DNA from: a virus
Taxonomy: Duplodnaviria; Caudoviricetes
Length of the DNA stretch: 56,874 bases
Virus record (IMG/VR): IMGVR_UViG_3300030108_003878
Location: 1 to 56,874 of that record
Strand: one strand, 5' to 3'
Shown: positions 1,974 to 45,435 of the stretch, piece after piece
Position numbering within the stretch: the stretch's first letter is position 1
Layout of the letters: every line of letters starts with the position of its first letter
The notes under the pieces: model-generated
Told to the model about the DNA's origin: nothing
The model's database searches: none
Seen by the model: the letters and a program-made list of their open reading frames with translations, nothing else
Translations under genes and position numbers: made by a program

Positions 1974-2438
1974 ATGAAAACAACTATCAACCAAAAATTA
2001 AAAACGATTCAAACTGAATTTAAATCAAAAAAAAATAGATTTAATAAATTTGGTAATTATCATTACCGTTCAGCAGAAGACATACTTGAAGGGCTTAAAC
2101 CTTTTTTAACTAACTTAAATGTAAGTGTTACAATAAACGAAGAATTAATCAGTTCAGAACCTCCCGTAATAAAATCAACCGCAACAATTTGCGATGATGA
2201 AAATAAATCGTTAAGTGCAACCGCTATTGTTGGAATAGATTTAACTTCTAAAGGCCAACAAATGCCTCAACGATATGGTGCAGCGTCATCTTATGCAAAA
2301 AAATATGCTTTAGGTAATTTATTATTAATAGACGATACACAGGACAGTGATGCCATGAATAAACATCCTGAGCCTCCTAAAAAAATAAACCATCAGAAGA
2401 TTAATAATATTGAGATAGACGACCTTATTACACTTTAA
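1974..2438 (+). CDS. ERF-family single-strand annealing recombinase
   Basis: FNKFGNYHYRSAEDILE and QRYGAASSYAKKYAL...DDTQDSD motifs. Confidence 0.85.
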   Translation: MKTTINQKLKTIQTEFKSKKNRFNKFGNYHYRSAEDILEGLKPFLTNLNVSVTINEELISSEPPVIKSTATICDDENKSLSATAIVGIDLTSKGQQMPQRYGAASSYAKKYALGNLLLIDDTQDSDAMNKHPEPPKKINHQKINNIEIDDLITL

Positions 2439-3172
2439 TGAACTCAAAAGAAATAATAGAAAAGCTTCAAGACGACAAACATTACTACGGTAAATTTGGC
2501 CGTCAATTTTTAAGTAACTCTGATATAAATACTTTAATTAAAGGTAAGCCTGAGGATTTATATAAACCAAAGAAAAAAACTTCAGATATGCTTATTGGTG
2601 GATATTTTCATACTATTATATTAGAGCCTGAAAAAGTAAAATCTTTTAAAATTATAGAAAGTTCAACACGCAATACAAATAAATATAAAGAAATATCAGG
2701 CGGTGAAATGTGTTTATTACAACACGAAGCTGACAAAGCAAATTTATTAACAGAAAAAATATTAAAAAATAAATATTGTGAGTCTATGATATTTGGTAGT
2801 GCTAAACAACATGAGGTCCCCGGTGTTAAATCAATTGAAGGAAACTTATGGAAAGGTAAAGCAGATATTATAAACCACGATGACCATTTTATAGTTGATT
2901 TAAAAACGACGCAAGACGTTGAAAATTTTAGATACAGCGCAAATAAATTTAATTATGATAGTCAAGCTTATTTATATCAACAAATATTTGGTTATGAAAT
3001 GATATTTATTGTAATAGATAAAAATACACAAAGAATAAAAGTATTTGATTGCTCAGATACTTTTTTACAACGGGGATATGATAAAGTTATGAGAGCAACA
3101 GAAGTGTTTAATTTATTTCATAAGACTTTAGACTTTGACCCAAATCAATATTTTATAAACGATACACTTTAA
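2438..3172 (+). CDS. PD-(D/E)XK exonuclease (RecE/exonuclease VIII-like)
   Basis: LSNSDI, GGYFHTIILEP, KGKADII...VDLKTT, YDSQAYLY; adjacent to ERF. Confidence 0.8.
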   Translation: MNSKEIIEKLQDDKHYYGKFGRQFLSNSDINTLIKGKPEDLYKPKKKTSDMLIGGYFHTIILEPEKVKSFKIIESSTRNTNKYKEISGGEMCLLQHEADKANLLTEKILKNKYCESMIFGSAKQHEVPGVKSIEGNLWKGKADIINHDDHFIVDLKTTQDVENFRYSANKFNYDSQAYLYQQIFGYEMIFIVIDKNTQRIKVFDCSDTFLQRGYDKVMRATEVFNLFHKTLDFDPNQYFINDTL

Positions 3173-3188
3173 TTTAAATTTAATCATT

Positions 3189-3497
3189 ATGGCAAGCATA
3201 ATAAATGGAAGCATTGACTTAACAAAAATACCTAAAGAAAAAATTATTATAGGTAAAAAAGGTAAGTACTTACCTATTTCAATTACTATTAACGACGAAC
3301 AAGACCAATTTGACCAAGATGGTCCTATAGTCGTACAACAGTCTAAAGAGGAAAGAGAAAGCAAAGAAGCTAAAACTTTTTTAGGAAATGTAAATGTTGT
3401 TTGGAGTAATGGACAAAATGTAGAAGCAAAGATAAAAACAAACGGTGCACAACCTCAAATAAAAGCTGAAGAGCCCGAAGACGATTTACCATTTTAA
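3189..3497 (+). CDS. Putative single-stranded DNA-binding protein
   Basis: Small beta-rich protein ending in acidic EDDLPF tail, between exonuclease and primase-helicase. Confidence 0.7.
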   Translation: MASIINGSIDLTKIPKEKIIIGKKGKYLPISITINDEQDQFDQDGPIVVQQSKEERESKEAKTFLGNVNVVWSNGQNVEAKIKTNGAQPQIKAEEPEDDLPF

Positions 3498-3501
3498 ATA
3501 A

Positions 3502-5217
3502 ATGAAAATTAATACTCAAGAGATTAATGGTTTTGAAATAGAAACTTTTAATCAATATAAACTTGAAGAAGGAAAAGCGCAGGGGATATGCCCTCTGTGC
3601 TCACACGAAAGAAAAGGTGCTAAGCAAAAACTTAAATGTGCTTCTTATGATTGGGAGCGCGGCTTAGGCACTTGTCATAATTGTAACAGCACTTTTCAAT
3701 TACATACATATATGCGTAAAGGTAAAGTTGAAAAAGAATATATCCGACCAAAAGCTGTTATTCATAATAAAATAAAAAGCACTAGGATTGAACAATGGTT
3801 TCAATCAAGAGGTATATCTATTAAAACGATAAATGATTTTAAAATATCGGAAGACATAGAATATATGCCTCAAATAGATAAGAAAACTAATATTATAAAA
3901 TTTAATTATTATATAGGTAATGAATTAATAAACATTAAATATAGAGATGCAAGAAAAAATTTTAAACTCTATAAAGGAGCCGAAAAAATATTTTATAATA
4001 TTAATAGTATTGTTGGTTATAATGAGTGTGCTATTGTGGAGGGTGAGATGGATGCTTTATCTTTACACGAAGCTGGTTATCCTAACGTAGTATCTGTTCC
4101 CAATGGTGCTACTATTAATAATAACAATTTAGATTACTTAGATAATTGTATAGATTACTTTGAAGACAAAGAAAAAATAATATTAGCCACTGATAAAGAT
4201 GAAGCTGGTATAACTTTACAGCAAGAATTAATTAGAAGATTAGGGGCAGAAAAATGTTATATAGTTGATTTTGAAGATTGTAAAGACGCTAACGAATATT
4301 TATTAACACATGGAAAAGAAAACCTTATCAGGCGAATTACAGAGGCAAAACCCGTGCCTTTGGAAAACGTTACTACTTTTAAAGATGTTGAGGACGAAAT
4401 TAAAGACTTTGTACAAAACGGTTTTAAGCCCGGTTATCAAGTTGGGCTCGCGAATTTTGACCAAATTTTTTCAACTTATACCGGTCAGTTTATTACTGTT
4501 ACTGGCATACCTTCTTCTGGTAAGTCTGATTTTGTGGATCAGATGGTCATCGGTTACAACTTAAAATACAATTGGAAAATTGCTTTTGCTTCACCAGAAA
4601 ACCAACCAACATATTTACATGCTCACAAGCTTATGCGAAAAGTATGGCAGGATATGCCAACTTTATCTCATGCAATTAAATGGCAGCAAGTTAGTCAACA
4701 TATTAATGATAATTTTTATTTTATTGATATGGAAAGATATACGCTTGAATCTGTGCTAAAAAAGGGAGCCGAACTAGTAAAGCGAAAAGGAATTAAATGT
4801 TTAGTTATAGATCCTTATAATAAAATAAGAGATGTAAATTCTAATTCAGATGATGTAAACCGTTATACAATGGAATACCTAACTAAAATAGAAATATTTG
4901 CAAAAAAATATGATGTTTTAGTTATCATAGTAGCACACCCTACAAAAATGTATCGAGATAAAGATGGTAATATAGAAGAGCCAACAATGTATAATATTAA
5001 AGGTGGCGGTGAATGGTATGATGCAAGTTATCACGGCTTATTAGTTCATAGAAATTATGAAGAAAAAACAGTTAAAGTAAAAGTATTAAAAGTTAAATTT
5101 CAAAATTTAGGTGAAAACGGAGCGGAAGCGTATTTTACTTGGAAACCAAAGTCAGGATGTTTTATTCCGCATTATATAGAATCTAATAACGAACCAATGC
5201 CATGGGAAGCGGACTAA
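3502..5217 (+). CDS. DNA primase-helicase (T7 gp4/Twinkle-like)
   Basis: Zn finger CPLC...CHNC; TOPRIM VEGEMDALS, DKDEAG, KDANE; Walker A GIPSSGKS; VIDPYN. Confidence 0.93.
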   Translation: MKINTQEINGFEIETFNQYKLEEGKAQGICPLCSHERKGAKQKLKCASYDWERGLGTCHNCNSTFQLHTYMRKGKVEKEYIRPKAVIHNKIKSTRIEQWFQSRGISIKTINDFKISEDIEYMPQIDKKTNIIKFNYYIGNELINIKYRDARKNFKLYKGAEKIFYNINSIVGYNECAIVEGEMDALSLHEAGYPNVVSVPNGATINNNNLDYLDNCIDYFEDKEKIILATDKDEAGITLQQELIRRLGAEKCYIVDFEDCKDANEYLLTHGKENLIRRITEAKPVPLENVTTFKDVEDEIKDFVQNGFKPGYQVGLANFDQIFSTYTGQFITVTGIPSSGKSDFVDQMVIGYNLKYNWKIAFASPENQPTYLHAHKLMRKVWQDMPTLSHAIKWQQVSQHINDNFYFIDMERYTLESVLKKGAELVKRKGIKCLVIDPYNKIRDVNSNSDDVNRYTMEYLTKIEIFAKKYDVLVIIVAHPTKMYRDKDGNIEEPTMYNIKGGGEWYDASYHGLLVHRNYEEKTVKVKVLKVKFQNLGENGAEAYFTWKPKSGCFIPHYIESNNEPMPWEAD

Positions 5218-5489
5218 CTAGTAGAAAAAAAAGGCTTAATTATACTATGCCTAGTTATAATTTAAGCGCAGACGAAATTAAATGGAGAAACTTTTGTATT
5301 AAAAAAAATATTAGAATATCACCAAAAGGTATATATAAAGACCCTGATAATTGGTATATTCAAATAAATTTTGGCCCTTATAAAAAAGGAGAGATACCTC
5401 ACGTATCACCAAATTCATTTGATCGTAAAAATATATGGCCTGAATATTTTAAAATATGTAAACATTATTATGATAAATATACAAAATGA
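5202..5489 (+). CDS. Hypothetical phage protein
   Basis: 95-aa ORF bridging helicase and TS-like gene with short overlaps. Confidence 0.65.
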   Translation: MGSGLTSRKKRLNYTMPSYNLSADEIKWRNFCIKKNIRISPKGIYKDPDNWYIQINFGPYKKGEIPHVSPNSFDRKNIWPEYFKICKHYYDKYTK

Positions 5490-6291
5490 ATATCGCGGTT
5501 TACTAGCCGGTATATTTTACGGAGGATCTAAAAAAGAAGATCGAACAGGGATAGGTACTAAAGCTGTTTACGGAAGAATGATCAGACACGATATGGCTTT
5601 AGGCTTTCCATTATTAACAACAAAAAAAATATTTTTCAATCATGCAACTACGGAATTATTATGGATACTACAAGGTCGTTCTGATCTTGATTATTTGCAC
5701 ACTAACGGTGTTACTTATTGGGACGCTAATTACAAATCCTCAAATAGAAATGATAACACGCTTGGGCCTATTTACGGGCATCAGCTTCGCAACTTTAATG
5801 GGATTGATCAACTTAAAAATGTACTCATCAACATTAAAGAAAACCCGAGCTCGCGGCGCATTATGGCAAGCTTTTGGAATCCCAATGACTTGGGTAATAT
5901 GGTCCTTCCTCCTTGTCATTATAGCTTTCAAATATATATAAATGATGATAAGCTTGATTTATTATGGACTCAGCGATCAGTGGATGTTTTCCTGGGTCTT
6001 CCTTATGATATTGCAATGTATGGGCTATTATTACTTATGTTTGCGAAAGGTAGTGGATATAAGCCCGGTACGCTTATCGCTTCCTTGGGTGATTGCCATA
6101 TTTATAATAATCATGCAAGTCAGGTTCAACAGCAATTACTTCGTAATTTTAGGAAATTACCTAATGTTAGTGTTGATATTGGACTTACTTATGATAAAAA
6201 ATTAAAAAAAGTAATTATACCTACACATAATATGGTTAATATTGTAAATTATGACCCTCACCCATATATTAAAGCACCTATAAACGCATAA
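5470..6291 (+). CDS. thyA: Thymidylate synthase-family enzyme, with Asp at the pyrimidine-specificity position (possible dCMP methylase/hydroxymethylase)
   Basis: DRTGIGT, FPLLTTKK, ELLW, LPPCH, QRSVDVFLGLPYDIAMY, GDCHIYNNH; start moved to in-frame ATG 5470. Confidence 0.9.
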   Translation: MINIQNEYRGLLAGIFYGGSKKEDRTGIGTKAVYGRMIRHDMALGFPLLTTKKIFFNHATTELLWILQGRSDLDYLHTNGVTYWDANYKSSNRNDNTLGPIYGHQLRNFNGIDQLKNVLINIKENPSSRRIMASFWNPNDLGNMVLPPCHYSFQIYINDDKLDLLWTQRSVDVFLGLPYDIAMYGLLLLMFAKGSGYKPGTLIASLGDCHIYNNHASQVQQQLLRNFRKLPNVSVDIGLTYDKKLKKVIIPTHNMVNIVNYDPHPYIKAPINA

Positions 6292-6293
6292 GT

Positions 6294-7049
6294 ATGTATT
6301 ATCTTTATCATATACCCGGTAAAAAAATAGGTGTAACACGTAATTTAAATAATAGAGTTACGCTAATGCAGGGCTATAAGTCTAATGAATATGAAGTTCT
6401 TGCTTCTTCTGATGATATTAATTTTATATCGTCGAAGGAAATAGAGCTTCAAAAGTCTTATGGCTATAAAGTTGATAGACAAAGCTATACTAGTTTAAAT
6501 AAATTAAATACAATGAAAATAAACATTACGGAACAAACCACAACTTTTCCAGTGCCCCGCACGCAGCTAGCGGATTGGCTTATTGAAAATAAAGAGTTAA
6601 CATGGGAAACAGACCATGGGGAATTTAATATTACTGAAGAATCATCCAGAGCCTGGGTATTAGCTAATGCTAAAAAATCTATGTATAACGACCAGCGCAC
6701 TTTTATTTATAACAAAGCATACGCTGAGAATGTTTTAAACAATCCCCAGGTTGAAATAGATTTTAATACTATTAGAGAGTGGGCAGATAAAAGAGGCATT
6801 GTAAAGGAAGGTAATGTTAATACACAATATATTAAGCTAATGGAAGAAGCTGGAGAGCTAGCCCAAGCTTTATTAAAAGATAACAAAGAAGAGATAAAAG
6901 ATGCCATAGGTGATATGGTTGTTGTACTTACTAATTTATCTTCTTTGTCAAAATTAAAAATTGAAGACTGCATTAACCATGCATATGACCAAATAGCTGA
7001 ACGAACGGGAGAAATGATAAATGGAACTTTTGTAAAAGATACGCTATGA
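6294..7049 (+). CDS. Fusion: GIY-YIG-like N-terminus, unknown middle domain, C-terminal MazG-like NTP pyrophosphohydrolase
   Basis: YYLYHIPGKKIGVTRNLNNR; C-terminal KLMEEAGELA...IKDAIGDMVVVL; in-frame internal ATG at 6513 with A-rich leader. Confidence 0.75.
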   Translation: MYYLYHIPGKKIGVTRNLNNRVTLMQGYKSNEYEVLASSDDINFISSKEIELQKSYGYKVDRQSYTSLNKLNTMKINITEQTTTFPVPRTQLADWLIENKELTWETDHGEFNITEESSRAWVLANAKKSMYNDQRTFIYNKAYAENVLNNPQVEIDFNTIREWADKRGIVKEGNVNTQYIKLMEEAGELAQALLKDNKEEIKDAIGDMVVVLTNLSSLSKLKIEDCINHAYDQIAERTGEMINGTFVKDTL

Positions 7050-7273
7050 GAGACTTAATTATTAAAAATGTTATTGAAAAAATTAAAAAACGTTCCGACG
7101 TTGGCTTTAAAAAATATGGCGTTACTTTAAAAGATGACGATCAACCACTCGACGTTTGGCTACAACATATTCAAGAAGAATTAATGGACGCAGTTAATTA
7201 TATTGAAAAAGCACGTTACGCACTTCGTGAAGAAATAGAAGAGTGTTATATTAATGATGCGAAAGAAGATTAG
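7046..7273 (+). CDS. Small all-alpha NTP-pyrophosphatase-like protein
   Basis: RSDVGFKKYGVTL...WLQHIQEELMDAVNY (EExxD motif). Confidence 0.6.
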   Translation: MRDLIIKNVIEKIKKRSDVGFKKYGVTLKDDDQPLDVWLQHIQEELMDAVNYIEKARYALREEIEECYINDAKED

Positions 7274-7703
7274 AAAACGTGGCCCAGTACAGGCTAAAAA
7301 AATAATTTATGATGGAATTAAATTTGCATCTGGATTAGAAAAATATATGTACATAGCTTTAAAAAAAGCTAAAATTAGATTTAAATACGAAGGAGAAACA
7401 TTTGTTTTATTAAATGGTTTTCATTTTGATAATCAAGTGTTTGAAAGACAGTCTAATAGTAAAGGAGAATATATAAATAGAGGTGAAAAAAGAATTCTAC
7501 CTATTAAGTACACTCCAGATTTTATTGGTAATAATTTTATAATTGAAACAAAAGGCAGACCAAATGAATCCTTTCCTATTAGATGGAAGTTATTTAAAAA
7601 ATTAGTTGTAGAACAATTTCCTAATTATACTTTGTATAAACCTCAAAATCAAAAAGAATGCGACAAAACTATAGATCTGATCCTAGGCATGCAAAAAAAA
7701 TAG
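7254..7703 (+). CDS. Holliday junction resolvase, T7 endonuclease I-like
   Basis: FASGLE...FKYE...YTPDF...IIETKG. Confidence 0.8.
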   Translation: MMRKKIRKRGPVQAKKIIYDGIKFASGLEKYMYIALKKAKIRFKYEGETFVLLNGFHFDNQVFERQSNSKGEYINRGEKRILPIKYTPDFIGNNFIIETKGRPNESFPIRWKLFKKLVVEQFPNYTLYKPQNQKECDKTIDLILGMQKK

Positions 7704-7831
7704 CGCGTATAAAATATGCAGAAAGACAGATTGAAAAGTATATTAAATGGACAATTGAAAATAGAGGAAAATTAATATATAGTGAATTAGAGGAATTACA
7801 TAATAAATATAATATTAATTGTTATGGCTAG
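7658..7831 (+). CDS. Small hypothetical protein (57 aa, not in ORF track)
   Basis: MRQNYRSDPRHAKKIARIKYAERQIEKYIKW...CYG*; fills the operon gap. Confidence 0.55.
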   Translation: MRQNYRSDPRHAKKIARIKYAERQIEKYIKWTIENRGKLIYSELEELHNKYNINCYG

Positions 7832-7961
7832 ATTAATTGTAAATAATAAATTTATAAAACCAAAAAAAAGAAGACCAGGAATTCATGCAAAATCAAAAAC
7901 ATCAAAAATTAAAACGAGCAAAAATTATGTCAAAAAATACAACCGACAAGGAAGAAGGTAA
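7824..7961 (+). CDS. Small basic protein (45 aa, not in ORF track)
   Basis: MARLIVNNKFIKPKKRRPGIHAKSKTSKIKTSKNYVKKYNRQGRR*; overlaps both neighbours. Confidence 0.6.
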   Translation: MARLIVNNKFIKPKKRRPGIHAKSKTSKIKTSKNYVKKYNRQGRR

Positions 7962-8091
7962 GGGCTGGGAGCTAACTCTCGGCTTTTATCCAGGAATATT
8001 ATTAGGGATAAGAAGTTATTTTAATAAAAATTATAACGAGCACGTTATATATGTTCCCTTTATAGATATTTGTTTAACTATTGATAAATAA
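7927..8091 (+). CDS. Small hypothetical protein
   Basis: MSKNTTDKEEGKGWELTLGFYPGILLGIRSY...; start moved to ATG 7927. Confidence 0.55.
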   Translation: MSKNTTDKEEGKGWELTLGFYPGILLGIRSYFNKNYNEHVIYVPFIDICLTIDK

Positions 8092-8095
8092 AAAT

Positions 8096-9064
8096 ATGGG
8101 ATTATTCGATGAAAGAATTCCTTATAAACCGTTTGAATATCCGGAATATTATACCGAGGGGTGGCTTAAGCAAGCCCAGGCTTTTTGGCTTCATACGGAA
8201 ATACCGATGTCAGGTGATGTTAAGGACTGGAAAGAAAGGCTCACCGACGGGGAAAGGCATCTCGTTGGAAATATACTTTTGGGATTTGCGCAAACAGAAT
8301 GTGCGGTATCTGATTATTGGACGCAAAAAGTGGTTAACTGGTTTCCAAAGCATGAAATACAGCAAATGGCAATGATGTTTGGATCGCAAGAAACTATTCA
8401 TGCGGTTGCTTACAGCTATTTAAATGAAACATTAGGCTTAGAAAATTTTGAAGGATTTTTACACGAACCAGCAACAGCCGCTAGGTTTGATAATTTAGTA
8501 AGTTATAATGGCAAAGAAGCAAAAGGTATTGGACGCTCGCTTGCAATATTTAGTGCATTTGCCGAAGGAGTTTCGTTATATTCTGCATTTGCTGTTTTAT
8601 ATAGCTTTCAATTACGAAATTTATTAAAAGGTATAGGTCAACAAATGAAATGGAGTGTAAGAGATGAATCGTTGCATTCTAAAATGGGATGTCAGTTATT
8701 TAGACATATGTGTAAAGAAATACCAAATTTACAAAACGATTGTTATGATGATGTTATTAAAGCGGCCAAAACAATGCTTAGTGCCGAGGAAAATTATATC
8801 GATAAAATGTTTGAAAAAGGAGACATCGAAAACCTTAAAGCTTACGACCTCAAACAATTTATCAGGAAACGTCTTAATGAAAAAATTACAGAACTCGGTT
8901 ACAGCAACGGACGGGAGTACTTTGAATTTGACGAAGTCGGAGCAAGTAATCTTGACTGGTTCTATCATCTTACCGGGGGGCATACTCATACTGATTTTTT
9001 TGCTATTCGGCCAACGGATTATTCGAAGGCTAATGAAGGTGAAGACTTTGATGACATATGGTAA
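8096..9064 (+). CDS. nrdB: Class I ribonucleotide reductase beta subunit
   Basis: Ferritin-like ligands QETIHAVAYS, FAEGVSLYSAF, RDESLH; C-terminal HTDFFAIRPTDYSK. Confidence 0.95.
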   Translation: MGLFDERIPYKPFEYPEYYTEGWLKQAQAFWLHTEIPMSGDVKDWKERLTDGERHLVGNILLGFAQTECAVSDYWTQKVVNWFPKHEIQQMAMMFGSQETIHAVAYSYLNETLGLENFEGFLHEPATAARFDNLVSYNGKEAKGIGRSLAIFSAFAEGVSLYSAFAVLYSFQLRNLLKGIGQQMKWSVRDESLHSKMGCQLFRHMCKEIPNLQNDCYDDVIKAAKTMLSAEENYIDKMFEKGDIENLKAYDLKQFIRKRLNEKITELGYSNGREYFEFDEVGASNLDWFYHLTGGHTHTDFFAIRPTDYSKANEGEDFDDIW

Positions 9065-9212
9065 AAAAAATATAATTAAATGTAGTCAATGCGATGAAGA
9101 GTTCCCTGGAGGATTTGAATATAGAGAACATTGGGAAAAAGAACATTTTTATCCTTACTTAAAAAAAGATTCTTTTGATTATGAAAAAGCAAAGGCAGAT
9201 GGCCATAAATAA
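9051..9212 (+). CDS. Small protein with classical C2H2 zinc finger
   Basis: CSQCDEEFPGGFEYREHWEKEH = C-x2-C-x3-F-x8-H-x4-H; ATG 9051 overlaps the end of nrdB. Confidence 0.6.
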   Translation: MTYGKKNIIKCSQCDEEFPGGFEYREHWEKEHFYPYLKKDSFDYEKAKADGHK

Positions 9213-9366
9213 AGTTTGGAGAATTTGGGCAAAAGCTTTAGGAGAAAAAGCTGAAGAAAATGCGGATAAAGTTGCTTTTGTAAGAACGTTATTAATTGCA
9301 CAAGCAATTATAACAAACATTTTAATTTCTATTAATATTATTTTAAATTGGTTATATGTGGAATAA
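9199..9366 (+). CDS. Small membrane protein
   Basis: MAINKVWRIWAKALGEKA plus hydrophobic C-terminal helix. Confidence 0.6.
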   Translation: MAINKVWRIWAKALGEKAEENADKVAFVRTLLIAQAIITNILISINIILNWLYVE

Positions 9367-11104
9367 CGATTGGATAAAAGGAAAAGACTATCCTGCTTGG
9401 GGTGATACAGAAGTATATAAAAAAACAATTGCTGGAGGGTATTTAGTTTATGATGAAACACCTCGTGATGCTTATATGCGAGTTGCTAAAACAGTAGCTA
9501 GAAGATTATATAAACCAGAACTAGCAGATAAATTTTTTCAATATATATGGGATGGGTGGTTATGTTTAGCTTCTCCTGTTTTATCTAATACAGGCACAGA
9601 TAGGGGTTTACCTATAAGTTGCTTTGGAATTGATGTTGCAGATAGCGTACATGACATAGGTAAAAAAAATTTAGAAATGATGATACTTGCAAAACACGGC
9701 GGGGGTGTAGGTATAGGCATCAATATGATTAGACCTGCCGGAGCTAAAATTACAGGTAATGGAACTTCAGACGGCGTTGTCCCTTTTTGCAAAATATATG
9801 ATTCAACTATCCTCGCGACCAACCAAGGTTCGGTTAGACGAGGAGCTGCAAGCGTTAATATCAATATTGAACACAATGATTTCCTCGAATGGCTTGAAAT
9901 TAGAGAACCAAAAGGTGACGTTAACCGCCAGTCTCTTAACCTGCACCAGTGTGCTGTCGTTGGTGATAAATTTATGCGAAAATTACAAGCAGGAAATCCA
10001 GACGCAAGAACAAAATGGTCTAAGCTTATCCAAAAACGTAAAGCAACTGGAGAACCTTATATCTTATTCAAAGGAAATACAAACAAAAATAATCCAGAAG
10101 CATATAAAAAAAATAGTTTAAAGGTACATATGACCAACATATGTAGTGAAATAGTATTACATACAGATGAATCACATAGCTTCGTGTGTTGCTTATCATC
10201 TGTTAATTTAGATAAATATAATGAATGGAAGAATACGAATTTAATTTACGACGCGACATGGTTCCTAGACGGTGTGCTAGAAGAATTTATTCAAAAGGCA
10301 AAGAATATGAAGGGATTCGAGAACTCTGTACGGAGTGCAGAGAAAGGTCGCGCACTTGGACTGGGTGTCCTTGGGTGGCACAGTCTATTACAAAAAAGCG
10401 GTATAGCTTTCGAGAGTTTATTAGCTCAATACAAAACGCGAGAAATTTTTTCAAAGCTAAAATTAGAAACTGAAAGAGCTTCAAGAGCATTAGCTGAAAC
10501 ATATGGAGAACCATTATGGTGCGTAGGGACAGGTATGCGTAATACTCATTTACGCGCTATTGCACCTACAGTTTCAAATAGTAAATTAGCGGGTAATGTA
10601 TCGCCTGGAATTGAACCTTGGGCCGCTAACGTTTTTACAGATCAATCTGCTAAAGGTACGTTTATTAGAAAAAATAAAGAACTAAAAAAGTTATTAAGAA
10701 AAGCAGGGATAGATACAAAAGAAACATGGGATAAAATACTTGCAGACGGCGGTTCTATTCAAGATATTAAAGAACTCGACGAATGGTATTATGATAATTT
10801 AGGAAGGCTAACTAATGAAGAAGAAAATAATGAATCAGCTAAAAATGTATTTAAAACATTTAAAGAAATAAATCAGTTAGAATTAGTGAGGCAAGCCGGT
10901 ATAAGGCAAGATTATATTGATCAAGCCGTAAGCTTGAACCTAGCTTTCCCCTCAGTGGCTACACCGAGATGGATTAATAATGTACATATTGAAGCGTGGA
11001 AAAGAGGTATAAAAACTTTATATTATACCCGAACCGAATCCGTATTAAGAGGAGATATAGCTGCAAAAGCAATGGATCCTGATTGTATAAGTTGTGATGG
11101 TTAA
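9356..11104 (+). CDS. nrdA: Class I ribonucleotide reductase alpha subunit (no ATP cone)
   Basis: LASPVLSN, ISCF, GGGVG, RRGA, TNICSEI, VCCLSS, APTVSNS, KTLYY, C-terminal CISC. Confidence 0.95.
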   Translation: MWNNDWIKGKDYPAWGDTEVYKKTIAGGYLVYDETPRDAYMRVAKTVARRLYKPELADKFFQYIWDGWLCLASPVLSNTGTDRGLPISCFGIDVADSVHDIGKKNLEMMILAKHGGGVGIGINMIRPAGAKITGNGTSDGVVPFCKIYDSTILATNQGSVRRGAASVNINIEHNDFLEWLEIREPKGDVNRQSLNLHQCAVVGDKFMRKLQAGNPDARTKWSKLIQKRKATGEPYILFKGNTNKNNPEAYKKNSLKVHMTNICSEIVLHTDESHSFVCCLSSVNLDKYNEWKNTNLIYDATWFLDGVLEEFIQKAKNMKGFENSVRSAEKGRALGLGVLGWHSLLQKSGIAFESLLAQYKTREIFSKLKLETERASRALAETYGEPLWCVGTGMRNTHLRAIAPTVSNSKLAGNVSPGIEPWAANVFTDQSAKGTFIRKNKELKKLLRKAGIDTKETWDKILADGGSIQDIKELDEWYYDNLGRLTNEEENNESAKNVFKTFKEINQLELVRQAGIRQDYIDQAVSLNLAFPSVATPRWINNVHIEAWKRGIKTLYYTRTESVLRGDIAAKAMDPDCISCDG

Positions 11105-11451
11105 GCTCTAATAATAATTATTTGTGCTTGTGCGTGTATAGAATTATTTTCTCGCGCGTAATCCATAATGTCTTTACCTTCTTCACACACAGGATTATAT
11201 AGCATAGCGCTATAATTAGCTAATAATAAAATCATTTCAGCTTTATCATGAATAGCAGCATGAATGATCAGTGGCTTTCCATAAATGCAAGCAGTTGATT
11301 TTATTAATTTATTCTGTAAAACAAATTCTACATATTTAAAATCATCATTTAAAATTGCATTTAAAGTTTTTTCTTCTACAGATAAAGAATGTGCAGATAG
11401 TAACTGCATTGAAGAGAATAAAAAAATAAGTAATAATAATAAATTTTTCAT
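11101..11451 (-). CDS. Secreted ankyrin-repeat-like protein
   Basis: Signal peptide MKNLLLLLIFLFSSMQLLSA; GKPLIIHAAIHDKAEMILLLANYSA...EEGKDIMDYA. Confidence 0.65.
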   Translation of the reverse strand: MKNLLLLLIFLFSSMQLLSAHSLSVEEKTLNAILNDDFKYVEFVLQNKLIKSTACIYGKPLIIHAAIHDKAEMILLLANYSAMLYNPVCEEGKDIMDYARENNSIHAQAQIIIIRA

Positions 11452-11474
11452 GTAATTAAAAAGGGTTTATACTT

Positions 11475-11505
11475 TTATATTTACACGTCTTACATTTTAT
11501 TACTA
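11475..11505 (-). promoter_or_regulatory. Putative late promoter (class L, variant)
   Basis: Minus strand GTAA-N15-GTAAATATA upstream of the ankyrin-like gene. Confidence 0.4.
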
Positions 11506-11592
11506 GGCAGTTAAAGAATTTAATTTATTTTTGCTAATTGATTAATTTTCAATGATTAAACATATCAAAACAATAAAAAAAATATATTATTT

Positions 11593-11937
11593 TTAATAAG
11601 TCCATATTGTTTGTTTAGGTGCGTCAGGATAGCCTACCCCTAAATGTATAAAACCTTTTTTTCTGCTAATACCAATTCTTTCAAAACCTACATTTAAAGC
11701 TGCTTTAACTAATAAAAAAGTTTTATTACCACCGACACTTTCAATGTCTACCGCAGCGCCATATGCATGCTCTCCCGGCTCTTTTTTTGCTGCTTCAATT
11801 GGATGGTCAGGACTCCTATAACTTGATGTTATTTTTATTGGGTATCCGTATTCTTCTCTTAATTCATCTAACATATTTAATAAATTTTGATCCATCATTT
11901 CAAAATTATTAAATTCAGATTCTTTAAAATATTTCAT
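11593..11937 (-). CDS. Peptidase M15-family endolysin
   Basis: ITSSYRS...HAYGAAVDI...FIHL zinc-peptidase motifs. Confidence 0.85.
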   Translation of the reverse strand: MKYFKESEFNNFEMMDQNLLNMLDELREEYGYPIKITSSYRSPDHPIEAAKKEPGEHAYGAAVDIESVGGNKTFLLVKAALNVGFERIGISRKKGFIHLGVGYPDAPKQTIWTY

Positions 11938-12011
11938 TTATATTTTTTAAACATTAATTTATATAAAAGACTATTCCAAGCCGCTTGTAATTTATCTATA
12001 AATTTTTTCAT
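11934..12011 (-). CDS. Micro-protein (25 aa, amphipathic)
   Basis: MKKFIDKLQAAWNSLLYKLMFKKYK*; TAATG and ATGA coupling to both neighbours. Confidence 0.5.
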   Translation of the reverse strand: MKKFIDKLQAAWNSLLYKLMFKKYK

Positions 12012-12318: not shown

Positions 12319-12597
12319 TTATTTTTCTCCGCATTTTTTACTTGGGTTAGCAACCTGCCTCCAATCTTCTTTTTTAAACCAGTCTCTAAGCGTAGCGCCC
12401 GGCTTACTCGCTCCTTTAACGTTTGTTTTCGCATCTCTTTTATATTTACCGGCTTTGCCGGCTTTTCGCTTTGCACGAATAACTTTATCGCGTTCTGCTT
12501 TGCTCATGCTTTTAATCTTGCTTAAGGGCAAACAGGCTTTAGTAGTTCCTCCACCTTTTTGCTTTAAAAAAGGCGAATTAAATTGATTATATGGCAT
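12319..12597 (-). CDS. Small basic phage protein
   Basis: K/R-rich; ACLP...SKAER...RAKR and LRDWFKKEDW...CG motifs. Confidence 0.7.
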   Translation of the reverse strand: MPYNQFNSPFLKQKGGGTTKACLPLSKIKSMSKAERDKVIRAKRKAGKAGKYKRDAKTNVKGASKPGATLRDWFKKEDWRQVANPSKKCGEK

Positions 12598-13141
12598 ATC
12601 CTTTTTGTTTTAAATGTCTGTACATACGGTCTCCTAATTCTTTTCCAAAATTACTATCTGACATATAATGAGCTTTACCAATATTACGGCTATCTGATAT
12701 TTCGTCCGCTTCTTTTTGATATTGAAATCTTAATTCTGGAAACTTATCACTTAATATATTTGCAAATAATTTAGATTGCGCGGAATGACCTGAAGGGTAA
12801 GAAGGTGTTTCCATAGATTTTAACTCAACATTTTCTATTTTAATTCCTAAGCTATTAGCTAATTCTTTCGGCCGTGGTCTATTAAAATAATTTTTTAAAC
12901 TTTTAATTACTTCACGAGAATCATTTTGTAATTTAGTTATTTCTTTTGTAGGAAAATCTAAACCTGCCTCATCATTTATATTTTTAAAACTTTTTATCAT
13001 ATCGTCTTTTTCAATAACAAAATTTTTATCGGTTTTAAGATTTTTTAATTCTTGCAATTCTTTAAATGTTTGTAAAGAATCATTTGCAGGAGGCTTATGT
13101 AATGTTAATGATGACGTATCAAAGTCTTCAAATAAATTCAT
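12587..13141 (-). CDS. PAP2/haloperoxidase-superfamily phosphatase
   Basis: KNYFNRPRP, PSYPSGHS, SRNIGKAHYMSD: all three PAP2 motifs. Confidence 0.85.
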   Translation of the reverse strand: MNLFEDFDTSSLTLHKPPANDSLQTFKELQELKNLKTDKNFVIEKDDMIKSFKNINDEAGLDFPTKEITKLQNDSREVIKSLKNYFNRPRPKELANSLGIKIENVELKSMETPSYPSGHSAQSKLFANILSDKFPELRFQYQKEADEISDSRNIGKAHYMSDSNFGKELGDRMYRHLKQKGYAI

Positions 13142-40018: not shown

Positions 40019-40290
40019 TATTTAGCTCTGCTTTCTGCAAATCCTCCAAATTTTGTTTTATTAGAATTTATATCTTTTAGAATATTTTTTTCTTGTTCTA
40101 TTCTTGATAAAATTTCAAATGCATCAAATATTGCAAGCTTTTTAGTTGCTGCAGCATTTTTTAATCTATCCGCTGCTAAATCTTCCGAAGCATCATTAAC
40201 TATAATTTCTTCTTCTGCAACTTTAATTAATTCCTCAACTGCTTTATGCCCAGCTTGGATTATATTCAGTTTGGTTTTTTTGATGTTCAT
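40018..40290 (-). CDS. Putative terminase small subunit
   Basis: 90-aa helical protein directly upstream of and coupled to TerL. Confidence 0.5.
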   Translation of the reverse strand: MNIKKTKLNIIQAGHKAVEELIKVAEEEIIVNDASEDLAADRLKNAAATKKLAIFDAFEILSRIEQEKNILKDINSNKTKFGGFAESRAK

Positions 40291-40840
40291 ATTTAATTAC
40301 AATATCATTTGATTTCATACAATATAAAAACTCATTATTAATTAAAAATTCAAACTCTGAGTTTGGCGTAAAGCCTACACAGTCTCCGGATTTAATTTTA
40401 AGCTTGTTTAAAGAGCTATTGTCATATTTTAATACACCAATATGATCTTGTAATTTTTGAAGCTTTAAATCGTCTTTATTTATCATTGGTTTAACAAAAC
40501 ATCGATCTCCAAAACTTTTCCAACCATTACCATCATCATATAAATAAACTTGATCTATTTGGCAAAAGTATTTATTTTCTTTAAAATATTTACTGCTATT
40601 TTTTTCTTGCCCTCTAATGTCATAATATCTTCTAAATACATTATGATGAATCATAATTTTATAACCAGGCTTTATAGGAGTTTTATATGCTAAAGGTACT
40701 GAAATAACTTTAGCTATTTTATTAATAAATTTAAAAGCTTCTATACTTGTATTTAAAATTAATGTTTTGTCGTTTATTTTTTTTTCGTTGTTATATCTTT
40801 TGCCTAAAGGCTCAACAATAAAATCATAAACACTATTCAT
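40244..40840 (-). CDS. Tandem GroES-like co-chaperonin
   Basis: Two GroES-like units (DFIVEP...AKVISVP...IKPGYKI; DRCFVKP...IKSGDCVGF...LYCMKSNDIV). Confidence 0.55.
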   Translation of the reverse strand: MNSVYDFIVEPLGKRYNNEKKINDKTLILNTSIEAFKFINKIAKVISVPLAYKTPIKPGYKIMIHHNVFRRYYDIRGQEKNSSKYFKENKYFCQIDQVYLYDDGNGWKSFGDRCFVKPMINKDDLKLQKLQDHIGVLKYDNSSLNKLKIKSGDCVGFTPNSEFEFLINNEFLYCMKSNDIVIKYEHQKNQTEYNPSWA

Positions 40841-45178: not shown

Positions 45179-45435
45179 AAAACAATAACTACATCATGCT
45201 CTTTAATAACTTGAAATATTTCTTTTTTAAATTCAACGTCGTGGCCGGCATGCTTGTCATAAAAAATATTATCATTTTCTTTAACGCCTACAACCTCAGA
45301 GCCTATTGATATTACTTGTGCTTTATTATATCTTAAATCTTCTCGTATTTTTTCTGTTAATAATAAACCACCTTTAGTTTTTGATATACCTTGCTTTTCT
45401 TTTTTTATAATAATGTTTTTACCCACCGCTCTCAT
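45175..45435 (-). CDS. groES: Co-chaperonin GroES
   Basis: KTKGGLLL mobile loop, AQVISIG, VKENDNIFY; coupled to groEL. Confidence 0.88.
   Translation of the reverse strand: MRAVGKNIIIKKEKQGISKTKGGLLLTEKIREDLRYNKAQVISIGSEVVGVKENDNIFYDKHAGHDVEFKKEIFQVIKEHDVVIVL

What the first reader, a model, noticed from the sequence alone, without database searches (positions are those of the whole stretch)
5470..6291. ThyA homologue carries Asp instead of Asn at the dUMP/dCMP specificity site
Seen: QRSVDVFLGLPY-D-IAMY (GAT at 6007-6009), where canonical ThyA reads QRSxDxxLGxPF-N-IASY. Established: this Asn (E. coli N177, L. casei N229) selects dUMP; changing it to Asp yields a dCMP methylase, and T4 dCMP hydroxymethylase has Asp here. 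Inference: an otherwise canonical-looking ThyA may make 5-methyl- or 5-hydroxymethyl-dCMP, giving a cytosine-modified genome that automated annotation would miss.
Basis: partly seen in the sequence, partly recalled or inferred. Interest (0 to 1): 0.85.

Follow-up and report, generated by a model that had tools for sequence, protein, structure and literature searches.

The report
Phage ThyA-like predicted dCMP methylase
A marine phage carries a thymidylate-synthase look-alike whose base-reading residue is switched from Asn to Asp, so it most likely methylates dCMP and lets the phage build restriction-resistant 5-methylcytosine DNA, a trick already known from phage Xp12 and virome surveys.

Summary
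ORF 5470-6291 (+) is a full-length ThyA-family protein, and GAT at 6007-6009 puts Asp where ThyA has the dUMP-selecting Asn (E. coli N177). It is not an error: the query and its 120 best database homologues all have Asp (121 of 121), as do 44 of 44 syntenic IMG/VR loci, and contigs from four other studies show no listed difference there.

Published residue rules predict a dCMP C5-methyltransferase (5-methyl-dCMP synthase):
- Asp177 selects cytosine.
- Ser167 and Arg126 select deoxyribose.
- Leu143 and the kept C-terminal tail favour methyl over hydroxymethyl.
- Asp169 rules out the 5-hydroxylase type.

A MazG-type pyrophosphatase always follows the gene. The lineage has no recognisable DNA polymerase, dNMP kinase, dCMP deaminase or DHFR.

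New supporting evidence: six genomes with this enzyme avoid no 4-bp G/C palindrome. Six of seven cultured relatives, all without any ThyA homologue, avoid at least one strongly (for example GATC 0 seen against 199 expected).

The kind is already known, from Xp12, MetaGPA (2021) and in vivo assays (2024). This scan has flagged the same clade before (e1-6196444, e1-3269957). The verdict is a new member of a known kind, of moderate interest. Enzyme activity and virion DNA composition remain untested.

The parts
5470..6291 (+). ThyA-family gene (P0001, 273 aa), predicted deoxycytidylate C5-methyltransferase (5-methyl-dCMP synthase)
   Evidence: Pfam PF00303 at 1.9e-83 over residues 7-271. PHROG 160 at 7.1e-93. 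AlphaFold model with pLDDT 96.1; the best PDB matches are ThyA at TM 0.87-0.93. Residue pattern.
6007..6009 (+). GAT = Asp180, the position of E. coli ThyA Asn177 (base-specificity residue)
   Evidence: Asp in 121 of 121 sequences and in 44 of 44 syntenic loci.
5914..5916 (+). TGT = catalytic Cys149 (E. coli C146) in the LPPCH motif; His150 (E. coli H147) follows
   Evidence: sequence. The column is invariant.
5905..5907 (+). CTT = Leu146 (E. coli L143), three residues before the Cys; Asp or Glu here marks hydroxymethylases
   Evidence: Leu in 164 of 164 clade rows. The rule comes from PMC6400193 section 20 and passages of PMC13326640.
6294..7049 (+). 251-aa protein with a C-terminal MazG/PRA-PH-type NTP pyrophosphatase domain and an unassigned N-terminal domain. 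Candidate dCTP pyrophosphatase; its specificity is inferred, not shown.
   Evidence: Pfam MazG at 3.7e-06 and PRA-PH at 6.1e-05. PHROG 1992 and 715 'MazG-like pyrophosphatase'. PDB 1vmg at 1.3e-4. A homologue lies downstream of the synthase in 43 of 45 clade loci and in 0 of 35 others.
7046..7273 (+). Conserved 75-aa protein of unknown function.
   Evidence: Only PHROGs of unknown function match. No Pfam, NCBIfam or PDB match of note. A homologue was found in 36 of 45 clade loci.
5202..5489 (+). Conserved 95-aa ORF of unknown function; its end overlaps the synthase start by 20 nt
   Evidence: No family match. A homologue lies upstream of the synthase in 42 of 45 clade loci.
8081..9064 (+). Ribonucleotide reductase small subunit (deoxynucleotide supply, same module)
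   Evidence: Pfam PF00268 at 1.1e-56. Syntenic in clade loci.
9356..11104 (+). Ribonucleotide reductase large subunit
   Evidence: Pfam PF02867 at 8.4e-90. Syntenic in clade loci.

Best explanation
ORF 5470-6291 most likely encodes a phage deoxycytidylate C5-methyltransferase (5-methyl-dCMP synthase, the activity of the Xp12 ThyA homologue).

Proposed chemistry (inferred from the retained residues):
- It uses the thymidylate synthase mechanism: Cys149 attacks C6 of the pyrimidine, methylene-tetrahydrofolate gives the carbon, and hydride transfer from the folate yields a methyl group and dihydrofolate.
- Asp180 replaces the uracil-reading Asn, so the substrate is dCMP.

Proposed pathway (inferred, none of it shown):
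- The MazG-type pyrophosphatase encoded directly downstream turns dCTP into dCMP. This feeds the enzyme and drains the canonical dCTP pool.
- Host kinases make 5-methyl-dCTP.
- The host replisome builds it into phage DNA, because no phage polymerase was found.
- The resulting 5-methylcytosine DNA resists restriction enzymes.

Shown here: family membership, the residue pattern, its fixation in a phage clade, the conserved gene order, and relaxed restriction-site avoidance. Inferred: substrate, product, the pyrophosphatase's specificity, and the extent of cytosine replacement.
For: Family and fold:
- Pfam PF00303 at 1.9e-83.
- 40-43% identity and TM 0.87-0.93 to solved ThyA structures.

Residue rules taken from papers:
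- Position 177, Asn for dUMP and Asp for dCMP (passages of PMC8670742, PMC13326640, PMC5175136).
- Position 143, Leu for methyl and Asp/Glu for hydroxymethyl, plus a Ser two residues before Tyr94 and loss of the C-terminal tail in hydroxymethylases (PMC6400193 sections 17 and 20; PMC13326640 passages).
- D169N marks 5-hydroxy-dCMP synthases (PMC13326640 passages).
- Ser167 and Arg126 mark deoxyribose substrates; Ala and Lys mark CMP (PMC5175136 passages).
- P0001 has D177, L143, P92, D169, S167, R126, and E58, W80, Y94, C146, H147, H207, Y209 and the tail ...IKAPINA.

Fixation in a phage clade:
- Asp in 121 of 121 sequences, in 44 of 44 syntenic loci and in 164 of 164 pooled clade rows.
- The clade is one branch (SH-aLRT 98) of 14 all-Asp rows.
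- It is essentially virus-only. Of the 80 best loci in 185,579 species genomes, 1 is a clade member (Asp, on a 3-kb contig) and 79 have Asn.

Experimental precedent: the Xp12 homologue and 5 of 7 metagenomic Asp-type homologues made 5mdC in vivo (passages of bioRxiv 10.1101/2024.12.05.627091). Xp12 shares the Pro-Tyr-Asp motif.

Context: a MazG/PRA-PH gene lies directly downstream in 43 of 45 clade loci. PRA-PH is among the top five domains co-localised with the dCMP deaminases mapped in that preprint's virome survey.

Indirect sign of protected DNA:
- The window and 5 relatives that are at least 93% complete avoid 0 of 12 G/C-containing 4-bp palindromes each, like 50 kb of Xp12.
- 6 of 7 cultured relatives chosen by terminase similarity, none with PF00303, strongly avoid 1-5 of them. 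Examples: GATC 0 seen against 199 expected, 0/263 and 51/184; CATG 2/146; CCGG 0/78.
Against: - No enzyme assay exists, and no base-composition data for virion DNA.
- The window and four 100%-complete relatives have no family A or B DNA polymerase and no thymidylate-kinase-family dNMP kinase. The window and five relatives that are at least 93% complete have no dCMP deaminase. The window has no DHFR.
- The NEB in vivo assays needed a co-expressed phage dNMP kinase (bioRxiv passages), so it is open whether 5-methyl-dCMP reaches the triphosphate pool here.
- The protein keeps His147. MetaGPA ranks position 147 as the second most discriminating, and Xp12 has Pro and T4 has Thr there. The engineered N177D/N229D methylases presumably keep the native His (my inference; no paper I read states it).
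- The Leu143 rule is a correlation, and Xp12 itself has Asn there.
- The MazG domain's specificity cannot be read from sequence. It has no meaningful similarity to the T4 gp56 dCTPase.
- The palindrome test used thresholds chosen after looking at the data. Hosts differ between the groups, and the six Asp-type genomes are one clade, so it amounts to one evolutionary event. The Mann-Whitney p of about 0.005 is not phylogenetically corrected. One TS-less relative (phi19:3) also avoids no 4-mer, and other anti-restriction means could give the same pattern.
Confidence: 0.6

Rival explanations
1. The enzyme does methylate dCMP, but the 5-methyl-dCMP is mainly deaminated by a host dCMP deaminase to dTMP. 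This would be an alternative thymidylate supply for a 68% A+T genome, with little or no 5-methylcytosine entering the DNA.
For: No phage dNMP kinase or DNA polymerase was found that could channel 5-methyl-dCMP into DNA. The genome is 32% G+C. In Xp12-type phages part of the methylated pool is deaminated to thymidine nucleotides (passages of bioRxiv 10.1101/2024.12.05.627091). Earlier notes of this scan propose the same route for CPR bacteria (untested here).
Against: No deaminase gene accompanies the synthase in the window or in five relatives that are at least 93% complete. In the preprint's virome survey, 70% of the dCMP deaminases on modified contigs lay within 3 kb of a thymidylate synthase gene. 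An ordinary Asn-type ThyA would supply dTMP more simply. The lack of 4-mer site avoidance fits protected DNA better than unmodified DNA.
Confidence: 0.13
2. It is a dCMP hydroxymethylase (5-hydroxymethyl-dCMP synthase) like T4 gp42. It would feed 5hmC, possibly further decorated, into the DNA.
For: Asp at position 177 is shared with T4 gp42. The C-terminus varies in length and sequence within the clade, e.g. ...APINA...KAKLNT...KAELSVGT...APLNVGKK, which could loosen active-site closure.
Against: The hydroxymethylase signature fails on every point tested (PMC6400193 sections 17 and 20): Leu rather than Asp/Glu three residues before the Cys, Pro rather than Ser/Thr two residues before Tyr94, and a C-terminal tail is present. 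No glycosyl-, carbamoyl- or other transferase was found among the ORFs scanned in the window.
Confidence: 0.1
3. It is still an ordinary thymidylate synthase acting on dUMP, and the Asp is tolerated or compensated by nearby changes.
For: Everything else in the active site is canonical. It scores above NCBI's thymidylate synthase equivalog cut-off. The phage has no other ThyA and an A+T-rich genome.
Against: 167 of 167 Asn-type rows keep Asn and 164 of 164 clade rows keep Asp, so the position is under strict and opposite constraint in the two groups. Asn-to-Asp mutants switch to dCMP (Liu & Santi 1992 and Hardy & Nalivaika 1992, as cited in PMC8670742; not read). Natural Asp-type homologues tested made 5mdC (bioRxiv passages).
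Confidence: 0.08
4. It is a 5-hydroxy-dCMP synthase (RB69/DLP3 type) or a CMP-specific (MilA-type) enzyme.
For: Both kinds carry Asp at position 177 (PMC13326640 and PMC5175136 passages).
Against: The diagnostic D169N is absent, since Asp169 is kept in 164 of 164 clade rows. Ser167 and Arg126 are kept instead of MilA's Ala and Lys.
Confidence: 0.02

Closest known systems
Deoxycytidylate C5-methyltransferase (ThyA homologue) of Xanthomonas phage Xp12 (MT664984.1, QNN97214.1) and the metagenomic Asp177 homologues tested by NEB (bioRxiv 10.1101/2024.12.05.627091)
   Same: ThyA fold, catalytic Cys, Asp at position 177 within the same Pro-Tyr-Asp motif, and Asp169 kept. A phage gene inside a nucleotide-metabolism module that includes ribonucleotide reductase.
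   Different: Only 28% identical to E. coli ThyA, against 42% for P0001, and placed elsewhere in the tree. Xp12 has Asn143 and Pro147 where P0001 keeps the canonical Leu143 and His147. Xp12 has an adjacent dCMP deaminase and DHFR, which this lineage lacks. P0001 passes the TIGR03284 thymidylate synthase cut-off and Xp12 does not.
Engineered N177D E. coli ThyA / N229D L. casei thymidylate synthase (dCMP methylases)
   Same: An otherwise canonical ThyA active site (my inference: including His147 and Leu143) with the single Asn-to-Asp change. This is the nearest mimic of P0001's residue pattern (the papers are cited in PMC8670742 and PMC13326640 but were not read).
   Different: These are laboratory mutants. 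P0001 is natural and fixed in a clade, with extra clade-specific changes I79Y, F176Y, S180M and F62I. Positions 79 and 176 contact the folate PABA ring in E. coli TS (PMC6400193 section 17).
T4 gp42 dCMP hydroxymethylase
   Same: ThyA superfamily, with Asp at the specificity position. In T4 it works together with a dCTPase.
   Different: 21% identity to E. coli ThyA. It has Asp145 three residues before the Cys, Ser94, no C-terminal tail and Thr at position 147. It is followed by glucosyltransferases, and T4 has its own polymerase and kinase.
MetaGPA class of Asp177 thymidylate synthase homologues on cytosine-modified virome contigs (eLife 2021, PMC8670742)
   Same: Phage-encoded, with Asp177, and found in environmental viromes that included one coastal seawater sample.
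   Different: MetaGPA also flags position 147 as changed, and this clade keeps His147.

Membership tests
Thymidylate synthase superfamily (Pfam PF00303, ThyA fold) | Significant match to the family profile over its full length | tested here: met
   PF00303 at 1.9e-83, 280.1 bits, profile positions 2-264 of 266.
Thymidylate synthase superfamily (Pfam PF00303, ThyA fold) | Catalytic Cys plus Glu58, Arg21, Arg126/127, Arg166, Ser167, Asp169, His207 and Tyr209 (E. coli numbering) | tested here: met
   All are present in P0001 and kept in 162-164 of 164 clade rows. Arg126 and Arg127 are invariant.
Thymidylate synthase superfamily (Pfam PF00303, ThyA fold) | ThyA three-dimensional fold | tested here: met
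   Predicted model with pLDDT 96.1 and pTM 0.94. Foldseek top hits are ThyA at TM 0.87-0.93. This is a prediction, not a solved structure.
Canonical dTMP synthase (ThyA, EC 2.1.1.45) | Asn at position 177, which reads uracil | tested here: not met
   Asp180 is encoded by GAT 6007-6009. 167 of 167 Asn-type comparison rows have Asn.
Canonical dTMP synthase (ThyA, EC 2.1.1.45) | Score above NCBIfam's equivalog cut-off | tested here: met
   TIGR03284 scores 256.8 bits against a cut-off of 108.35. This is why pipelines name it thymidylate synthase.
dCMP C5-methyltransferase (Xp12 type, EC 2.1.1.54) | Asp at position 177 | tested here: met
dCMP C5-methyltransferase (Xp12 type, EC 2.1.1.54) | No acidic residue at position 143, and Asp169 kept | tested here: met
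   Leu143 and Asp169. The rule comes from PMC6400193 and PMC13326640.
dCMP C5-methyltransferase (Xp12 type, EC 2.1.1.54) | Converts dCMP to 5-methyl-dCMP with dihydrofolate formed | not testable with these tools
   Needs an enzyme assay or an in vivo LC-MS assay.
dCMP C5-methyltransferase (Xp12 type, EC 2.1.1.54) | 5-methylcytosine replaces cytosine in virion DNA | not testable with these tools
   Only indirect evidence is available: no 4-bp palindrome is avoided in 6 of 6 Asp-type genomes, against 6 of 7 TS-less relatives that avoid at least one.
dCMP C5-methyltransferase (Xp12 type, EC 2.1.1.54) | Common descent with the Xp12 enzyme and the Xp12 cassette (adjacent dCMP deaminase and DHFR) | tested here: not met
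   Xp12 groups with other rows and the window's clade is separate. At least 9 Asn/Asp changes are needed on the 78-row tree. No PF00383 or PF00186 was found. The class is defined by function, so this bears on ancestry, not on activity.
T4-type dCMP hydroxymethylase | Asp or Glu three residues before the catalytic Cys | tested here: not met
   Leu (CTT 5905-5907) in P0001 and in 164 of 164 clade rows.
T4-type dCMP hydroxymethylase | Ser or Thr two residues before Tyr94, and no C-terminal tail | tested here: not met
   Pro at that position, and the tail ...HPYIKAPINA has the same length as in E. coli ThyA.
5-hydroxy-dCMP synthase (RB69 gp48 / DLP3 gp80 type) | Asn at position 169 | tested here: not met
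   Asp169 is kept. The rule comes from passages of PMC13326640.
MilA-type CMP hydroxymethylase | Ala at position 167 and Lys at position 126 | tested here: not met
   Ser and Arg are kept. The rule comes from passages of PMC5175136.

The most novel reading that the evidence does not exclude
A widespread, still uncultured lineage of marine podophages related to Flavobacterium, Cellulophaga and Maribacter phages replaces cytosine by 5-methylcytosine before replication. It would do so with a minimal module of an Asp-type ThyA and a MazG pyrophosphatase, without a polymerase, dNMP kinase or deaminase of its own. Host kinases and the host replisome would therefore build the modified genome, and the phage could give up the restriction-site avoidance that its unmodified relatives depend on.
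Probability: 0.3. Interest if true: 0.55.

Novelty: new member of a known kind. Interest (0 to 1): 0.35.

Why it matters
If this clade's DNA carries 5-methylcytosine throughout, several things follow.
- A common group of marine phages, probably infecting Flavobacteriaceae, would be invisible to or mis-measured by methods that assume ordinary cytosine. Examples are restriction-based assays, some library preparations, and methylation calling.
- The phages would be resistant to many host restriction systems but exposed to methyl-dependent ones.
- It would show that a two-gene module can be enough when the host supplies the kinase and polymerase steps.
- The contrast with TS-less relatives, which purge GATC, CCGG, CATG and similar sites, would be a clean natural example of two alternative anti-restriction strategies within one phage group.
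- In practice, this protein passes curated 'thymidylate synthase' thresholds, so annotation pipelines should check position 177.

Tried and rejected
- Megablast of window 3000-12000 against GenBank phages found nothing. The best tblastn hit of P0001 there was 44.4% identical, so no cultured close relative could be used.
- I first took 'WDAN' instead of 'WDEW' (E. coli W83) for a clade peculiarity. I rejected this because the Asn-type phage synthases have the same WDAN.
- Tyr176 is not diagnostic: 24 of 131 Asn-type representatives also have Tyr.
- The MazG fusion compared with the T4 gp56 dCTPase gave no meaningful similarity.
- The 75-aa ORF 7046-7273 has no Pfam, NCBIfam or PDB match of note, so the 'second MazG' reading is unsupported.
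- The N-terminal 150 residues of ORF 6294-7049 gave only T5orf172 at E 0.12, so the GIY-YIG reading is unconfirmed.
- A Walker-A scan found no kinase candidate in the early region.
- No RNA holder was listed among the sequencing runs. All runs were kept as contigs, so the reads say nothing on modification or expression.
- A paper search for thymidylate synthase + 5-methylcytosine + marine + phage + Flavobacteri found 0 papers. I did not otherwise search for prior descriptions of this clade.
They may list members of this clade.
- Complex prediction, the protein-atlas search, the listing of cluster members and the RNA tools were not used.
Ticket one search was too early and was collected.
Full report
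**What is there.** The window is a whole IMG/VR virus record of 56,874 bases, estimated 94% complete, with 32% G+C. ORF 5371-6291 (+), read from ATG 5470, gives a 273-aa protein, P0001. This start fits the N-termini and lengths of its homologues.
- P0001 matches Pfam Thymidylat_synt (PF00303) at 1.9e-83 over nearly the whole profile, and PHROG 160 at 7.1e-93.
- It matches 122 distinct PDB sequences. The best is a flavobacterial ThyA (6auj, E 5.9e-68).
- Bases 6007-6009 are GAT, encoding Asp180.
- HMMER and MAFFT both align Asp180 with the Asn of ThyA 'PFNIASY' (E. coli N177), with the Asp of the Xp12 enzyme and with D179 of T4 gp42.
- An AlphaFold model (pLDDT 96.1, pTM 0.94) matches solved ThyA structures at TM 0.87-0.93.

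**The Asp is real and fixed.**
- The query and its 120 best homologues among 5.8 billion clustered proteins (63-99% identity; 7,999 of the 8,000 scored candidates had E of 1e-20 or less) all carry Pro-Tyr-Asp, 121 of 121.
- In IMG/VR, 80 loci were kept. Of these, 45 share the window's gene order and 52-88% identity. All 44 that cover the site have Tyr176/Asp177. The other 35 loci (42% identity or less, no shared gene order) all have Phe176/Asn177.
- Contigs from four sequencing runs of four studies span the codon. None of the 40 listed differences lies on it; 5 more were not shown.
- Among the 150 closest 50%-identity cluster representatives of 1.84 billion proteins, 18 have Asp, 1 has Ser and 131 have Asn.
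- On a quick maximum-likelihood tree of 78 rows, the window sits in a branch of 14 rows, all with Asp (SH-aLRT 98). Xp12 lies elsewhere, with other Asp rows. At least 9 Asn/Asp changes are needed on that tree. Many forks are unresolved, so this number is rough.
- In one genome for each of 185,579 prokaryote species, 79 of the 80 best loci have Asn. The one exception is a clade member (61% identity, Asp) on a 3-kb contig binned with a Flaviramulus MAG.
- The clade is thus essentially viral, with a weak hint at Flavobacteriaceae hosts.

**What the enzyme most likely does.** The literature gives residue rules for this superfamily.
- Position 177 reads the base: Asn for dUMP, Asp for dCMP. Asn-to-Asp mutants become dCMP methylases (passages of PMC8670742, PMC13326640 and PMC5175136; the 1992 mutagenesis papers were seen only as citations).
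- Position 143 correlates with the product: Leu excludes water and gives methyl, while Asp or Glu gives hydroxymethyl.
- Hydroxymethylases also have a Ser or Thr two residues before Tyr94 and lack the C-terminal tail (PMC6400193, sections 17 and 20 read in full; PMC13326640 passages).
- D169N marks 5-hydroxy-dCMP synthases (PMC13326640 passages).
- Ser167 and Arg126 mark deoxyribose substrates; Ala and Lys mark CMP (PMC5175136 passages).
- P0001 has Asp177, Leu143, Pro92, Asp169, Ser167, Arg126 and a tail of canonical length (...IKAPINA). Glu58, Trp80, Tyr94, Cys146, His147, His207 and Tyr209 are all kept.
- Read by these rules, it is a deoxycytidylate C5-methyltransferase.
- There is experimental precedent. 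The Xp12 homologue and 5 of 7 metagenomic Asp-type homologues produced 5mdC in E. coli when co-expressed with T4 dNMP kinase (passages of bioRxiv 10.1101/2024.12.05.627091).
- Compared with 167 Asn-type rows, the 164 clade rows differ consistently at only a few other places: I79Y (100% against 0%), F176Y (100% against 14%), S180M (96% against 0%) and F62I (98% against 3%). Positions 79 and 176 line the folate PABA pocket in E. coli TS (PMC6400193 section 17). What these changes do is unknown.

**Context.** The gene lies in a conserved early module:

| Coordinates | Product |
|---|---|
| 1166-1915 | sigma factor |
| 1974-2438 | ERF annealing protein |
| 2438-3172 | exonuclease |
| 3502-5217 | primase-helicase |
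| 5202-5489 | 95-aa ORF, unknown function |
| 5470-6291 | the synthase |
| 6294-7049 | MazG/PRA-PH pyrophosphatase fusion |
| 7046-7273 | 75-aa ORF, unknown function |
| 7254-7703 | DUF1064 resolvase-like protein |
| 8081-9064 | ribonucleotide reductase small subunit |
| 9356-11104 | ribonucleotide reductase large subunit |

- This order recurs in the 45 clade loci. The MazG homologue is found downstream in 43 of 45, and in 0 of the 35 other loci.
- A dCTP-hydrolysing role for the MazG protein is an inference by analogy with T4 gp56. The two proteins are not detectably similar.
- The window and four 100%-complete relatives have no family A or B DNA polymerase and no thymidylate-kinase-family kinase.
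- The window and five relatives that are at least 93% complete have no dCMP deaminase.
- The window has no DHFR, no second ThyA and no P-loop kinase candidate in the early region.
- No transferase or dioxygenase that could decorate the base further turned up among the ORFs scanned.
- This differs from Xp12, whose synthase sits beside a dCMP deaminase and a DHFR, and from T4.
- It leaves open how 5-methyl-dCMP is phosphorylated. It also implies that the host replisome would have to use the modified nucleotide.

**An indirect test of modified DNA.** By terminase similarity, the nearest GenBank phages are a spring-water podovirus (63%), the Flavobacterium elemoviruses (45%), Maribacter phage Panino (41%), Cellulophaga phages (36-38%) and Tenacibaculum phage Gundel_1 (31%). 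None of the seven I examined has any PF00303 match.

I compared observed and expected counts (maximum-order Markov) of palindromes containing G or C.

| Genome | ThyA homologue | 4-bp palindromes strongly avoided | 6-bp palindromes strongly avoided |
|---|---|---|---|
| Window | Asp-type | 0 of 12 (lowest ratio 0.75) | 1 of 31 |
| G001-G005 (each at least 93% complete) | Asp-type | 0 of 12 each (lowest ratios 0.51-0.61) | 1-4 of 30-35 |
| Spring-water phage MW202828 | none | 2 (GATC 0/199, CCGG 0/26) | 6 of 38 |
| elemoE | none | 5 (CATG 2/146, CCGG 0/12, CGCG 0/12, GGCC 0/27, GATC 51/184) | 5 of 24 |
| Panino | none | 3 (GATC 0/263, CCGG 0/78, CGCG 0/21) | 6 of 31 |
| Calle_2 | none | 1 (CGCG) | 2 of 36 |
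| phi38:1 | none | 1 (CGCG) | 2 of 36 |
| Gundel_1 | none | 1 (CGCG) | 7 of 32 |
| phi19:3 | none | 0 | 4 of 31 |

- Counts are observed/expected. 'Strongly avoided' means a ratio below 0.35 with at least 8 expected for 4-mers, and below 0.2 with at least 5 expected for 6-mers.
- Fifty kilobases of Xp12, which is known to carry 5mC throughout, also avoid no 4-mer.
- The contrast fits DNA that is protected by modification, but it is only supportive:
  - The thresholds were chosen after seeing the first table.
  - Hosts differ between the groups.
  - The six Asp-type genomes are one clade, so the Mann-Whitney p of about 0.005 is not an independent-sample probability.
  - Other anti-restriction mechanisms would give the same pattern.
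- Oddly, GATATC is depleted in all six Asp-type genomes (0/10, 1/13, 0/17, 1/18, 1/14, 0/15). This is unexplained.

**Comparison with what is known, and novelty.**
- By its residues the protein should work like the Xp12 enzyme and like the engineered N177D/N229D synthases.
- By descent it is a separate lineage much closer to ThyA: 42% identity to E. coli ThyA, against 28% for the Xp12 enzyme.
- It is canonical enough to pass NCBI's thymidylate synthase equivalog cut-off, which Xp12 and T4 gp42 do not.
- Natural Asp177 homologues on cytosine-modified phage contigs were described by MetaGPA (PMC8670742) and have been exploited since, so the principle is not new.
- This scan has noted Asp-type ThyA about 150 times in at least 137 genomes. 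It has met this very clade before, with the same conclusion (e1-6196444, e1-3269957).
- New here are the product call from the four-position residue code, the finding that the whole lineage lacks a kinase, polymerase and deaminase, and the restriction-site contrast with TS-less relatives.

| Reading | Probability |
|---|---|
| Full reading: dCMP methylase feeding 5mC into phage DNA | about 0.6 |
| Thymidylate supply through 5-methyl-dCMP without DNA modification | about 0.13 |
| dCMP hydroxymethylase | about 0.10 |
| Ordinary dTMP synthase | about 0.08 |
| 5-hydroxylase or CMP enzyme | about 0.02 |

This is a new member of a known kind, with interest 0.35.

Noticed in passing
whole window; G001-G005 (L198-L216): GATATC is strongly depleted in all six Asp-type genomes (seen/expected 0/10, 1/13, 0/17, 1/18, 1/14, 0/15), although none of them avoids any 4-bp G/C palindrome. 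GAATTC is also low in two of them. It is possibly a site that stays cleavable on 5mC DNA; this is unexplained.
   Followed up: partly
relatives: MW202828.1, NC_055854.1, PP540027.1 (L087-L092, L178-L181): TS-less relatives show extreme purging of short sites. Seen/expected: GATC 0/199 and 0/263, CATG 2/146, CCGG 0/78, GGCC 0/27. This is a strikingly different anti-restriction strategy within one terminase family.
   Followed up: partly
6294-7049 (+): The N-terminal ~150 residues of the MazG fusion have no family match apart from T5orf172 (GIY-YIG-related, by my recollection) at E 0.12. Contigs of other runs pile up on short parts of this gene, and two runs have contigs that skip about 97-100 bases (6341 or 6344 to 6442). 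In relatives the distance from the synthase to the MazG match varies. Together this suggests a mosaic or mobile N-terminal domain.
   Followed up: partly
5202-5489 (+): A conserved 95-aa ORF with no family match overlaps the synthase start by 20 nt and precedes it in 42 of 45 clade loci. It is a possible coupled partner of unknown role.
   Followed up: no
23652-25187 (-): A virion protein carries a crAss-like 'muzzle' C-terminal domain (PF25729 at 6.1e-14; PHROG 14478). This links the podophage group structurally to crAss-like phages of Bacteroidota.
   Followed up: no
45419-46972 (-), 40244-40840 (-): A phage-encoded GroEL (Cpn60, 1.5e-54) and a 198-aa GroES-like protein (PHROG 13932). The elemovirus relative also has a GroES next to its terminase.
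   Followed up: no
12587-13141 (-): A 184-aa ORF with a PAP2 (acid phosphatase/lipid phosphatase) domain, 1.3e-06, just above Pfam's cut-off. It lies near the endolysin at 11593-11937.
   Followed up: no
L217 (JALRJA010000319.1, 3,002 b): This is the only clade member among 185,579 species genomes. It is a 3-kb contig binned with a Flaviramulus MAG (61% identity, Asp). It is probably a phage fragment, and a weak pointer to Flavobacteriaceae as hosts.
   Followed up: partly
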